Below are positions 9,001 to 12,000 of a stretch of 26,414 nt of DNA, in pieces (within the stretch, counting starts at the first letter, position 1; every line of letters begins with the position of its first letter). The DNA comes from Escherichia coli (lineage in GTDB: Bacteria > Pseudomonadota > Gammaproteobacteria > Enterobacterales > Enterobacteriaceae): NCBI RefSeq assembly GCF_003334815.1, contig NZ_QOWO01000047.1; one strand, written 5' to 3'. The position numbers are program-made.

Positions 9001-12000
9001 CTATTGCCAGAGCAACATTTAATGCACAAATCGGCGGGAAAGTATTAATGACGTTGAAGTACGGTAATAAGAGCGTTCCATTCGGTGCAATTGTCACACA
9101 CGGAGAGAATAAAAATGGCAGCATTGTCGCGGAAAATGGTCAGGTTTATCTGACTGGACTTCCACAGTCAGGGCAATTACAGGTTTCATGGGGCAAAGAT
9201 AAAAACTCAAACTGTATTGTCGAGTACAAGCTTCCTGAAGTTTCTCCTGGTACCTTACTGAACCAGCAGACAGCAATCTGTCGCTAAGGAACAATAGATT
9301 ATGAAATACAATAACATTATTTTCCTCGGTTTATGTCTGGGGTTAACCACCTATTCTGCTTTATCCGCAGATAGCGTTATTAAAATTAGCGGGCGCGTCC
9401 TCGATTATGGCTGCACAGTCTCATCGGATTCGCTTAATTTTACCGTAGATCTCCAAAAAAACAGTGCCAGACAATTTCCAACGACCGGTAGCACAAGTCC
9501 AGCCGTCCCTTTTCAGATTACGTTAAGTGAATGCAGCAAAGGGACAACGGGGGTTCGGGTTGCATTTAACGGTATTGAGGATGCAGAAAATAATACTTTG
9601 TTGAAACTGGATGAAGGAAGCAATACGGCCTCCGGTTTGGGTATAGAAATATTGGACGCAAATATGCGTCCGGTGAAACTGAATGATCTTCATGCCGGGA
9701 TGCAGTGGATCCCACTGGTACCAGAACAGAACAATATTTTGCCTTACTCCGCTCGTCTGAAGTCAACTCAGAAGTCCGTCAATCCGGGACTGGTGAGGGC
9801 TTCGGCAACCTTTACCCTTGAATTTCAATAATCAGAGTCAGATATGAAAAGACTTCACAAGAGGTTCCTGTTAGCTACGTTTTGCGCGTTATTCACAGCA
9901 ACTCTCCAGGCCGCCGATGTCACTATCACTGTTAATGGTCGGGTAGTCGCTAAACCCTGCACTATTCAAACCAAAGAAGCTAACGTTAATCTCGGGGATC
10001 TTTATACGCGCAATCTGCAACAACCTGGTTCTGCATCTGGCTGGCACAATATTACTTTGTCATTAACCGATTGTCCGGTTGAAACAAGTGCAGTGACGGC
10101 AATCGTGACAGGTTCAACTGACAATACGGGTTATTACAAAAATGAAGGTACTGCCGAAAATATTCAGATAGAGCTGAGGGATGACCAGGATGCTGCGTTA
10201 AAAAATGGCGATAGCAAAACGGTTATTGTTGATGAGATCACTCGTAATGCACAGTTTCCACTTAAGGCAAGAGCTATCACGGTGAATGGAAACGCAAGCC
10301 AGGGAACGATCGAGGCGCTAATCAATGTGATCTACACCTGGCAATAACGTCGATTCGATTTTCTTAGCCTTCTTTTTAAATCAATTTTTAACCTTAGGAT
10401 ATATCATGGGTAAAACAATCAGTATAAAGGTCCTGTTCGGTATTTATCTTCTATTAATGGCAGGCAAAGTTTTTGCCTTCAGTTGTAATGTCGATGGCGG
10501 GTCAAGTATTGGAGCAGGTACAACCTCTGTTTATGTTAATCTCGACCCTGTAATACAGCCGGGCCAGAATCTGGTTGTAGACTTGTCTCAGCATATAAGT
10601 TGCTGGAATGATTACGGCGGCTGGTACGACACTGATCATATAAACCTGGTACAAGGCTCAGCTTTCGCAGGCTCCCTACAGTCATATAAAGGATCGCTGT
10701 ACTGGAATAATGTGACCTACCCCTTCCCGTTGACGACAAATACCAACGTATTGGATATTGGTGATAAGACACCGATGCCATTACCGTTAAAACTCTATAT
10801 TACCCCAGTTGGGGCGGCCGGTGGAGTTGTCATAAAAGCGGGGGAAGTCATTGCCCGTATTCATATGTATAAAATTGCAACATTAGGAAGCGGAAATCCG
10901 CGTAATTTTACGTGGAATATTATTTCAAATAACAATGTTGTTATGCCAACAGGCGGCTGCACCGTTGATAGTCGTAATGTCACCGTGGATCTCCCGGACT
11001 TTCCTGGAAGCGCAGAAATACCCCTTGGCGTATATTGCTCAAGCGAACAAAAGCTCTCATTTTATCTTTCGGGTGCCACCACTGACAGTAGCCGACAAGT
11101 GTTTGCTAACACAGCACCTGATGCAACAAAAGCATCGGGAGTGGGTGTCACTCTAATGCGTAATGGAAAAATACTGGCTACGGGAGAAAATGTCTCCCTG
11201 GGGACAGTAAATAAAAGCAAAGTACCTCTGGGTTTAAGCGCAACCTATGGACAAACAGGAAACAAGGTTTCAGCCGGAACCGTCCAGTCAGTCATTGGTG
11301 TCACTTTTATCTATGAATAATTGTGATTTTGACCTTAGTCTATGCGCTCCATTCACGAAAATTGCGCGGATAATTATTTTGTGAAGGCTATTAGCCTACA
11401 CCTGTAAGAAAATCCGCGCACAATTGAAGCCAGAGTCTTATTTTTTATATTGAAAAATATGTTAATTTAAACACTATGAGAGATGATGCTTAACTTATCG
11501 TATTTAATCTATTGTTTAACGATAATAGATTAAAAATAGAAAGAGAGTAGTCCCCTACTCTTATATATCCATGTTGGCGATAATCCCTTTGTATGTACTG
11601 TGCATCATCGCTATTACAAATCCTAATAATTCATTTCCACACAGGATAAGTAGATGAAGAAAAAAATTGAATCCTACCAGGGTGCTGCAGGTGGTTGGGG
11701 TGCTGTTAAATCCGTAGCGAATGCAGTACGTAAGCAGATGGATATACGCCAGGATGTTATTGCCATGTTTGACATGAATAAGCCAGAGGGCTTTGACTGT
11801 CCGGGTTGTGCATGGCCAGATCCTAAGCACAGTGCGTCATTCGACATTTGTGAAAACGGCGCAAAAGCAATCGCCTGGGAAGTCACGGATAAGCAGGTAA
11901 ACGCCTCTTTCTTTGCTGAGAATACGGTTCAATCATTACTTACCTGGGGAGACCACGAGCTTGAGGCTGCGGGGCGACTCACTCAGCCTTTGAAATATGA

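What the first reader, a model, noticed from the sequence alone, without database searches (positions are those of the whole stretch)
11385..11440. EvgA-box module upstream of ydeP shares about 55 bp of similarity with the safA promoter
The ydeP upstream segment ...TTAGCCTACACCTGTAAGAAAATCCGCGCACAATTGAAGCCAGAGTCTTATTTT... and the safA upstream segment ...TTCTGCCTACAGCTGTAAGAAACTCCGCTCAGTACTGAAGCACCAGTCCTATTTCC... share the core GCCTACA-NN-TGTAAGAA and continue to match downstream (TCCGC, TGAAGC, CAG..TC.TATTT). The similarity extends well beyond a minimal 18-bp binding site, suggesting a duplicated promoter module or an extended regulatory architecture. Around the ydeP copy there is also a flanking inverted repeat, ATTGCGCGGA (11362-11371) and TCCGCGCACAAT (11412-11423).
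Basis: partly seen in the sequence, partly recalled or inferred. Interest (0 to 1): 0.5.

Follow-up and report, generated by a model that had tools for sequence, protein, structure and literature searches.

The report
Duplicated, extended EvgA-activated promoter cassette
The ydeP and safA acid-resistance promoters of E. coli are old copies of one promoter cassette, and the stretch they share beyond the known EvgA binding site carries fixed-position elements found in EvgA-type promoters of five genera, which points to a second, undescribed activator contact next to the -35 region.

Summary
Window 11394-11443 aligns without gaps to 14053-14102 at 40/50 identity. In the 33 nt after the 18-bp EvgA box, 24 match (P about 2e-8).

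Two layers explain it.

1. Duplication. The in-register similarity continues to about +95 after the box. It includes a shared extended -10 (TGTTAATTT / TGTTATATT) and the start of the leader. Only this promoter pair aligns freely downstream of the box (z 8.4).

2. A rigid EvgA-promoter architecture. I anchored 19 EvgA-type promoters from Escherichia and four other genera (named by source annotation) on the box. T+26, C+27 and T+31 are present in 19/19. Together they form TCYKAT, which resembles an EvgA/RcsB half-site. C+9 A+10 is frequent. A TAnnnT -10 starts at +53 to +55 in 19/19. With the ydeP leader start at 11476, the box centre lies near -74.5 and TCYKA at -40 to -36.

Across seven diverged strains the 33-nt extension varies at 3/66 columns, against 44/190 in the upstream flanks.

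The mechanism is inferred, not shown. Further EvgA subunits (a BvgA-like array) and/or RcsB would dock there. RcsB is known to be required at ydeP and safA, with no known site.

The flanking inverted repeat is real but looks incidental.

The parts
11393..11410 (+). ydeP EvgA box (AGCCTACA-CC-TGTAAGAA)
   Evidence: Pattern match with 2 mismatches. The variable columns in 7 strains are box position 2 (11394) and the two central spacer bases. G at position 2 is seen only in the window sequence; the other six strains have T.
11411..11443 (+). ydeP 33-nt extension (linker between the box and the -35 position)
   Evidence: 24/33 identical to safA in register. 1/33 columns vary in 7 strains.
11419..11420 (+). 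Family-wide CA at +9/+10 after the box (about -57/-56)
   Evidence: 6/6 K-12 EvgA promoters. C in 15/19 and A in 13/19 across genera.
11436..11442 (+). Family-wide proximal element TCTTATT (TCYKAT at +26 to +31, about -40 to -35)
   Evidence: T+26, C+27 and T+31 in 19/19 promoters of 5 genera. TCYKA occurs at offset +26 in 10/26 box-sides, against a mean of 0.10 at other offsets. It resembles positions 2-6 of the EvgA half-site TTCYTACA and the RcsB half-site TCTTA (PMC5829831).
11460..11468 (+). ydeP extended -10, TGn + TAATTT
   Evidence: A TAnnnT hexamer starts at +53 to +55 in 19/19 promoters. The TGT prefix is shared with safA.
11476..11476 (+). Probable ydeP transcription start (A)
   Evidence: PMC11210196 used a ydeP leader running from -178 to +10 relative to the ATG at 11654. 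That start is 8 nt after the -10 hexamer. The paper does not state that it is a mapped start site.
11394..11500 (+). Full ydeP copy of the paralogous promoter cassette (about 107 nt)
   Evidence: Gapped local alignment to 14053-14160 with one 1-nt gap.
14052..14069 (+). safA EvgA box (TGCCTACA-GC-TGTAAGAA)
   Evidence: Pattern match with 1 mismatch. 1/18 columns vary in 7 strains.
14070..14102 (+). safA 33-nt extension
   Evidence: 24/33 identical to ydeP. 2/33 columns vary, at +20 and +21, which are not family positions.
14078..14079 (+). Family-wide CA at +9/+10
14095..14101 (+). Family-wide proximal element TCCTATT
14119..14127 (+). safA extended -10, TGn + TATATT. The start is predicted near 14134-14135.
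   Evidence: Same register as ydeP. The consensus promoter scan found no -35/-10 pair here, as expected for an activator-dependent promoter. The start site is inferred, not mapped.
14053..14160 (+). Full safA copy of the paralogous cassette
11363..11371 (.).
   Evidence: Perfect 9-nt inverted repeat with 40 nt between the arms. The upstream arm varies in 2/7 strains without compensation, and safA has no equivalent.

Best explanation
The ydeP and safA promoters are paralogous copies of one sigma-70 promoter cassette of about 107 bp, of the EvgA-activated class.

Each copy has four parts:
- an 18-bp EvgA palindrome centred about 74.5 bp upstream of the transcription start;
- a 33-bp linker;
- a poor -35 region;
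- an extended -10 (TGnTAnnTT).

At fixed positions it carries elements common to EvgA-type promoters in general: CA at about -57/-56 and TCYKAT at about -40 to -35. TCYKAT looks like one half-site of a NarL/FixJ-family regulator.

The most likely mechanism is this. EvgA~P bound to the palindrome nucleates further activator subunits along the same DNA face, down to the half-site beside the -35 hexamer. These subunits would be additional EvgA protomers, as in BvgA arrays, and/or RcsB. The promoter-proximal subunit then contacts RNA polymerase.

Shown here: the similarity, its extent, the family-wide fixed geometry, and the purifying selection. Inferred: the start sites other than ydeP, and which protein binds the linker.
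For: Similarity and extent. 40/50 ungapped identity, with 24/33 after the box (P 2e-8). In-register identity continues at +50 to +95 (25/46, against 13.65 +/- 2.7 for other pairs).

Pair-specific homology. Free local alignment downstream of the box is significant only for ydeP-safA (z 8.4). The pair matches at 15/22 non-family positions.

Family architecture.
- Six K-12 promoters have a mean pairwise identity of 15.0/33 downstream of the box. Shuffles give 8.8 +/- 0.64 (0 of 20000 reach the observed value). The figure is 14.4 without the ydeP-safA pair. The far side of the boxes gives 8.7.
- In loci around EvgA orthologues of 66-82% identity, TCYKA sits exactly at +26 and TAnnnT at +53 to +55.

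Constraint. The extension varies at 3/66 columns, against 44/190 in the upstream flanks (Fisher P 3.7e-4).

Geometry. The ydeP leader start at -178 from the ATG (PMC11210196) falls 8 nt after the shared -10.

Half-site resemblance. The best secondary scores of an EvgA half-site matrix lie 20 and 42 bp downstream of the distal primary half-site.

Precedents and need.
- BvgA dimers array every 22 bp from a strong upstream site to the -35 (PMC7250471).
- RcsB and EvgA are both required for ydeP induction (PMC7174508).
- safA depends on RcsB but not GadE, and an EvgA-RcsB heterodimer has been speculated (PMC5651002).
- RcsB half-sites are TTAGGAA / TCTAAGA (PMC5829831).
Against: - No binding data for the linker were available. 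The primary EvgA footprinting and motif papers (Itou 2009; Masuda and Church 2003; Ma 2004) are not in the library, so footprints confined to the 18-bp box cannot be excluded.
- Only a half-site is conserved. The partner half expected for an EvgA 18-mer or a 14-bp RcsB box is not conserved.
- A third EvgA dimer would overlap the -35 hexamer rather than abut it.
- Only the ydeP start site has outside support, and that support is indirect.
- Some cross-genus promoters were found by the very motif that is then counted, although the -10 position and the emrK orthologues were not selected that way.
- The gadE region, also reported as an EvgA target, shows no such architecture.
- Upstream of the box the two copies share nothing, so the duplication boundary coincides with a functional boundary. 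Convergence therefore cannot be excluded for the first 50 bp alone.
Confidence: 0.6

Rival explanations
1. Chance similarity of two AT-rich promoter regions that happen to share an EvgA box.
For: Both regions are AT-rich intergenic DNA. Short matches are common in such DNA.
Against: 24/33 in fixed register, P 2e-8. Local alignment score 50, against 16.3 +/- 2.3 in dinucleotide shuffles. With the box removed the score is still 22, against 12.8 +/- 2.1 (5 of 2000 shuffles reach it).
Confidence: 0.01
2. Convergence only. The two promoters arose independently, and the shared bases are all imposed by the EvgA-promoter architecture and the shared regulators.
For: Eleven of the 33 linker positions are conserved family-wide. 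Similarity stops abruptly at the upstream edge of the box. The extended -10 could be selected independently.
Against: The pair matches at 15/22 linker positions that no other EvgA promoter conserves (P 6.6e-5). It also matches at 25/46 positions from +50 to +95, including leader sequence that varies among strains and so is weakly constrained. No other pair aligns freely.
Confidence: 0.15
3. A neutral relic of duplication. The extension is left-over homology with no function, and EvgA needs only the 18-bp box.
For: The pair is clearly homologous over about 107 nt. The published consensus is an 18-bp inverted repeat (PMC3720670).
Against: The extension is the least variable segment of both intergenic regions in 7 diverged strains (3/66 against 44/190 columns). 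Its key positions recur at the same offset in unrelated EvgA promoters of five genera whose surrounding sequence has diverged completely.
Confidence: 0.07
4. The pair-specific blocks (TCCGC at +3 to +7, TGAAGC at +15 to +20) are an operator for a further regulator that acts on ydeP and safA but not on other EvgA targets, for example YdeO feedback, PhoP or H-NS. This would sit on top of the family architecture.
For: These blocks are invariant in 7 strains. YdeO is reported to repress its own expression and, indirectly, ydeP (PMC11210196). PhoP lowers safA promoter activity (bioRxiv 10.64898/2026.05.06.723403). H-NS binds the ydeP and ydeO promoter fragments (PMC2984483).
Against: I recognised no motif of these regulators in the blocks. 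Plain common descent plus selection on the whole linker explains them equally well. [quoted passage not shown]
Confidence: 0.15

Closest known systems
EvgA box promoters of E. coli (18-bp inverted repeat TTCYTACA-N2-TGTARGAA upstream of ydeP, safA-ydeO, emrKY, yfdX, frc, yegR)
   Same: Both window sites match the box. They lie upstream of genes reported to be bound and activated by EvgA (PMC8147483; PMC3720670).
   Different: In the papers I could read, the described element is the 18-bp box only. Here the conserved unit is about 76 bp: box, CA at +9/+10, TCYKAT at +26 to +31, and a -10 at +53 to +58, with spacing fixed to +/-1 bp. In other genera the half of the box nearer the gene is the better conserved.
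BvgA-activated promoters of Bordetella (Pfha, Pptx, Pfim3)
   Same: EvgA is described as the E. coli counterpart of BvgA. In Bordetella a strong inverted-repeat site lies far upstream. Further dimers bind weak sites every 22 bp on one DNA face, and the last one reaches the -35 (PMC7250471). Here half-site-like elements lie 20 and 42 bp downstream of the primary half-site, and the last one adjoins the -35.
   Different: No binding data exist for EvgA on these positions. Only single half-sites are conserved. In EvgA boxes the half-sites face the opposite way (TTCYTA...TARGAA) from the BvgA site (TAAGAAA TTTCCTA). A third dimer would overlap rather than abut the -35.
RcsB boxes and RcsB heterodimer sites (RcsAB box; GadE-RcsB GAD box)
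   Same: TCYKA equals the RcsB half-site TCTTA/TCCTA (flhDC box halves TTAGGAA / TCTAAGA, PMC5829831). RcsB works with a partner on composite sites in which only one half looks RcsB-like (PMC2887963). RcsB is required at ydeP and safA.
   Different: The left half of a full RcsB box is not conserved here. No RcsB binding at these promoters has been reported in what I could read. The placement of RcsB boxes just upstream of -35 is recalled from memory, not checked.
Tandem duplication of regulatory DNA (paralogous promoters)
   Same: Two collinear copies in the same orientation lie 2.66 kb apart in one gene cluster, at about 66% identity over 107 nt.
   Different: No flanking homology or repeat junctions remain. 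The age and direction of the copying event are unknown.

Membership tests
EvgA-box promoter | 18-bp inverted repeat TTCYTACA-N2-TGTARGAA upstream of the gene | tested here: met
   11393-11410 (2 mismatches) and 14052-14069 (1 mismatch); 0.36 matches expected by chance.
EvgA-box promoter | EvgA binds the site and activates transcription | not testable with these tools
   Literature only. [quoted passage not shown]
EvgA-box promoter | Fixed distance from box to core promoter (a feature derived here) | tested here: met
   TAnnnT starts at +53 to +55 after the box in 19/19 promoters. Both window promoters have it at +53.
BvgA-type multi-dimer array | Strong primary inverted repeat at the upstream end | tested here: met
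   The box centre is about -74.5 if the start is at 11476.
BvgA-type multi-dimer array | Further dimer sites at about 22-bp steps on the same DNA face | tested here: inconclusive
   The half-site matrix gives its two best secondary mean scores at +3 and +25, which are 20 and 42 bp from the distal primary half-site. The partner halves are not conserved, and the scores are weak in absolute terms.
BvgA-type multi-dimer array | Promoter-proximal site adjoins the -35 region | tested here: met
   TCYKA lies at -40 to -36, directly upstream of the inferred -35 hexamer (+31 to +36). The position is inferred from the -10 and from the ydeP leader start.
BvgA-type multi-dimer array | Occupancy by several activator dimers | not testable with these tools
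   Needs footprinting or FeBABE cleavage.
RcsB box | Right half-site TCYNA | tested here: met
   T+26 and C+27 in 19/19, A+30 in 16/19. This matches the flhDC half-site TCTTA (PMC5829831).
RcsB box | Left half-site (TNRGA) four bases upstream of the right half; this consensus is recalled from memory | tested here: not met
   In the six K-12 promoters only the R position (+19, G/A in 6/6) fits. The G and A positions (+20, +21) fit in 1/6 each. It is therefore not a full RcsB homodimer box. A heterodimer or single-subunit site is not excluded.
UP element (alpha-CTD site) | A/T-rich tract between about -60 and -40 | tested here: not met
   The ydeP and safA linkers contain TCCGCGCAC and TCCGCTCAG, and +1 to +25 of ydeP is about half G+C. 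Only the CA.AA element at +9 to +13 is A-rich.
Paralogous (duplicated) promoter pair | Collinear similarity beyond the positions constrained in the family | tested here: met
   15/22 non-family linker positions match. +50 to +95 is 25/46, against 13.65 +/- 2.7 for other pairs. Free-alignment z is 8.4.
Paralogous (duplicated) promoter pair | Homology of flanks or duplication junctions | tested here: not met
   There is no similarity upstream of the box (about 2-3 of 11 per window). None remains beyond about +95.

The most novel reading that the evidence does not exclude
The invariant TCYKA half-site 25 bp downstream of every EvgA box, at about -40 to -36, is where RcsB docks, either alone or as an EvgA-RcsB heterodimer. 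RcsB is required for induction of ydeP and safA independently of GadE, and no binding site for it has been identified there. On this reading EvgA-type promoters would be obligate two-regulator composite promoters, conserved across Enterobacterales.
Probability: 0.25. Interest if true: 0.7.

Novelty: new variant of a known kind. Interest (0 to 1): 0.5.

Why it matters
EvgS/EvgA starts the acid-resistance cascade of E. coli, and ydeP and safA-ydeO are its first and strongest outputs. In the papers I could read, the accepted cis-element is an 18-bp box.

This analysis shows that the conserved unit is much longer and rigidly spaced. It has an invariant half-site next to the -35 and a fixed -10. 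This holds in Escherichia and in loci whose source annotation names Enterobacter, Dryocola, Citrobacter and Klebsiella.

That gives three things:
- A sharper rule for predicting EvgA regulons. It assigns the second yfdX-region box to ypdI, and it predicts EvgA-type promoters before hdeD-gad clusters and a Klebsiella ammonium-transporter/urease cluster.
- A specific base-pair target for testing how RcsB contributes to EvgA-dependent, GadE-independent promoters. I found no answer to that question in the reviews I could read.
- An example of regulon growth by local copying of a whole promoter cassette. ydeP itself appears to be acquired: its nearest relative outside Escherichia and Shigella, in Edwardsiella, has no such promoter.

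Tried and rejected
- Cross-species footprinting through YdeP orthologues.
- YdeP homologues. The nearest one outside E. coli and Shigella is from Edwardsiella (87% aa). It sits in a moa/nrd context, with a 141-bp upstream region and no EvgA box, so it gives no orthologous promoter.
- Protein P0001, a 93%-identical YdeP. It is just an E. coli variant.
- Start-site literature. Itou 2009 and Ma 2004 are not held. The supplements of PMC4918353 hold expression tables but no start sites for these genes. Other papers gave none.
- Population-level conservation from 51-mer BLAST counts. Local alignment trims end mismatches and the bands are coarse, so it did not resolve the question. I used the 7-strain alignment instead.
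- The alternative ydeP promoter TTGAAG-16-TATATT (11424-11451). I rejected it as the common core, because safA and the other promoters have no -10 at that offset, and the reported leader start fits the +53 hexamer.
- A full second EvgA 18-mer or a full RcsB 14-mer in the linker. Not supported.
- The gadE upstream region. It shows no box with TCYKA and a -10 in this architecture.
- Rfam. No hit in 11300-14500.
- The inverted repeat around the ydeP box. It is real but not conserved as a pair.
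Full report
**What the window is**

The window is the ydeT-ydeS-ydeR-ydeQ-ydeP-safA-ydeO-ydeN-ydeM region of Escherichia coli, read on the + strand. A 3.5-kb stretch around the finding matches 5390 of 5426 complete E. coli genomes. RefSeq annotates ydeP (window 11654-13933), safA (14181-14378) and ydeO (14453-15214) there. The window differs from a K-12 derivative at 5 positions in 9.5 kb.

**Checking the observation**

- Both quoted segments are present.
- The EvgA-box pattern TTCYTACANNTGTARGAA matches at 11393-11410 and 14052-14069.
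- The best local alignment is ungapped, 11394-11443 against 14053-14102, with 40 of 50 bases identical. Its score is 50; dinucleotide shuffles give 16.3 +/- 2.3.
- In the fixed register after the box, 24 of 33 bases match (binomial P 2e-8). Without the box, the downstream score is reached by only 5 of 2000 shuffles.
- The inverted repeat flanking the ydeP box is real: 9 nt, 11363-11371 and 11412-11420.

**The similarity goes further than reported**

In the same register, +50 to +95 after the box is 25/46 identical. With one 1-nt gap the alignment runs for about 107 nt. This stretch includes TGTTAATTT (11460-11468) against TGTTATATT (14119-14127), which is an extended -10 (TGn plus hexamer). 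It also includes TTAAC(G)TTATC, which lies in the transcribed leader.

PMC11210196 used a ydeP leader that starts 178 nt before the ATG, at window 11476. That is 8 nt after the shared hexamer. Only the ydeP start has this outside support. The safA start, near 14134, is inferred.

**Layer 1: duplication**

I compared the two promoters with the other K-12 EvgA promoters: emrK, frc, yfdX and ypdI in L002, and yegR in L016.

- Free local alignment downstream of the box is significant only for ydeP-safA (z 8.4; all other pairs are below 2.6).
- Inside the 33-nt extension the pair matches at 15 of the 22 positions that the family does not conserve (P 6.6e-5).
- Their 25/46 at +50 to +95 compares with 13.65 +/- 2.7 (maximum 18) for the other pairs.
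- Part of the shared leader sequence varies among strains. It is therefore weakly constrained, and its similarity is better explained by descent than by convergence.
- Upstream of the box nothing is shared.

The nearest YdeP outside E. coli and Shigella is from Edwardsiella (87% aa). It lies in a different context, with a short upstream region and no EvgA box. The ydeP promoter is therefore an addition made in the Escherichia lineage, which fits copying of a neighbouring cassette.

**Layer 2: a family-wide architecture**

*K-12 promoters.* I anchored six K-12 EvgA promoters on the box and oriented them towards the gene.

- Mean pairwise identity in the 33 nt after the box is 15.0. Shuffles give 8.8 +/- 0.64, and 0 of 20000 reach the observed value. 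Without the ydeP-safA pair the mean is 14.4. The far side of the same boxes gives 8.7.
- The signal is positional. C+9, A+10, T+26, C+27 and T+31 are present in 6/6. A+12, A+13, G+19, A+30 and T+32 are present in 5/6.

*Other genera.* I fetched loci around EvgA orthologues of 66-82% identity. Their source annotation names them Enterobacter cancerogenus, Dryocola, Citrobacter freundii, Yersinia and Klebsiella pneumoniae.

- An offset histogram over all box matches in all loci shows TCYKA at +26 in 10 of 26 box-sides (boxes with up to 3 mismatches). The mean at any other offset is 0.10, and the maximum is 2.
- In a set of 19 promoters from five genera, T+26, C+27 and T+31 are present in 19/19. 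A TAnnnT hexamer starts at +53 to +55 in 19/19. Control windows average 0.97 of 19, with a maximum of 4.
- The surrounding sequence of orthologous promoters, for example yfdX in E. coli and Citrobacter, has otherwise diverged.
- One caveat: some of these promoters were found through the TCYKA criterion itself. The -10 position and the emrK orthologues were not selected that way.

**Constraint within E. coli**

The ydeP intergenic region is unusually polymorphic: 1198 genomes are only 90-95% identical to the window. In seven diverged strains the extension varies at 1/33 columns in ydeP and 2/33 in safA. The upstream flanks vary at 20/72 and 24/118, and the leaders at about 19-20%. For extension against flanks, Fisher P is 3.7e-4. 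The three variable extension columns are +20 and +21, which are neither family positions nor shared between the pair.

**Mechanism (inferred)**

TCYKA matches positions 2-6 of the EvgA half-site TTCYTACA. A matrix built from the primary half-sites gives its two best secondary scores at +3 and +25. These lie 20 and 42 bp downstream of the distal primary half-site, so on the same DNA face.

This resembles BvgA promoters. There, dimers bind every 22 bp from a strong upstream site to a weak site at the -35 (PMC7250471).

The same five bases also equal an RcsB half-site (flhDC box halves TTAGGAA / TCTAAGA, PMC5829831). Several published points make RcsB a candidate:

- RcsB, like EvgA, is required for acid induction of ydeP, and a constitutively active EvgS does not bypass that requirement (PMC7174508).
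- safA depends on RcsB but not on GadE, and an EvgA-RcsB heterodimer has been speculated (PMC5651002).
- RcsB is known to work on composite sites with a partner (PMC2887963).

The partner half of a full EvgA or RcsB site is not conserved. What can be said is that a single conserved half-site sits directly upstream of a poor -35. Which protein occupies it cannot be decided here.

**Other points**

- The inverted repeat around the ydeP box has no counterpart at safA. Its upstream arm changes in 2 of 7 strains with no compensating change. I regard it as incidental.
- The pair-specific blocks TCCGC and TGAAGC could also serve a further regulator. YdeO, PhoP and H-NS all touch these promoters. Nothing here tests that.

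**Novelty and limits**

The boxes and their genes are known. I found the extended, rigidly spaced architecture and the cassette duplication described in none of the papers I could read. However, the primary footprinting and motif papers were not available, so prior description cannot be excluded. I rate this as a new variant of a known kind, of moderate interest. Its main value is that it turns the unexplained RcsB requirement at EvgA promoters into a base-pair-level test.

Noticed in passing
window 14259-14261 (SNP at 14260): safA carries an in-frame TAA at codon 27 (TTA to TAA), which would truncate the 65-aa connector SafA within what I recall to be its membrane segment. An exact 49-nt match to this allele occurs in only 1 of 5365 E. 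coli genomes, strain 52F4 from a calf. That genome also matches the 3.5-kb region perfectly. RefSeq still annotates safA at that place in 52F4.
   Followed up: yes
window 11476-11660 (hairpins 11503-11534 and 11544-11561): The 178-nt ydeP leader folds more stably than shuffles (-40.5 kcal/mol, z -2.86). It has two hairpins and a long-range pairing of GAUGAUGC near the 5' end with GCAUCAUC upstream of the ribosome-binding site. The first hairpin is an 11-nt perfect inverted repeat, and strains differ there by a 5-nt indel. There is no Rfam match.
   Followed up: partly
window 11476-11493: The probable ydeP transcription start is the A of an ATG that opens a 5-codon ORF (ATG AGA GAT GAT GCT TAA, MRDDA). 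The 19 nt around it are invariant in seven strains, although about 19% of leader columns vary. It could be a leaderless mini-ORF or a conserved initial transcribed sequence.
   Followed up: no
L002 14539-14556, + side (MG1655 yfdX-ypdI intergenic region): The better of the two EvgA boxes upstream of yfdX points the other way. TCTTAT at +26 and TATTAT at +53 lie on the ypdI side. So this box probably drives ypdI, and the weaker box (14501-14518) drives yfdX.
   Followed up: partly
L021 5287-5304 (- side) and 6571-6588 (- side); Klebsiella pneumoniae by source name: EvgA-type promoters with the full architecture lie upstream of an ammonium-transporter/urease gene cluster (TCTGAT at +26, TACACT at +54) and of hdeD-hdeA (TCCGAT, TATAAT). 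This suggests that urease belongs to an EvgA-type acid response in that species.
   Followed up: no
L017 20328-20345; L018 14673-14708; L019 14668-14703: In Enterobacter cancerogenus one box serves the divergent yfdX and hdeD-like genes, with TCTGAT at +26 on both sides. In Dryocola and Citrobacter freundii two boxes lie back to back, one for each direction. There the hdeD-hdeA-gadB-gadC-like cluster sits directly next to evgAS-yfdX.
   Followed up: partly
L010 4860-5000 (Edwardsiella tarda by source name): The closest YdeP outside E. coli and Shigella is 87% identical. It lies between moa/ybhL-like genes and nrdAB, with no safA, no ydeO and no EvgA box. This suggests that ydeP moved horizontally and acquired its EvgA promoter afterwards.
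   Followed up: partly
window 11394: Among the seven strains compared, only the window sequence has G at position 2 of the ydeP box (AGCCTACA). The other six have T (ATCCTACA), which is closer to the consensus. The G happens to match the safA box.
   Followed up: no
window 11000-14500, in other genomes (hits H2-H8): Several strains carry insertion sequences (IS4, IS5, IS1A, IS903B, ISApl1) inside this 3.5-kb stretch. Some split ydeQ. I did not determine where they lie relative to the ydeP promoter.
   Followed up: no
window 14994-15011: A third, weak EvgA-box match (TTCTTTTAGATGCAAGAA, 3 mismatches) lies inside the ydeO coding sequence. It is probably chance.
   Followed up: no
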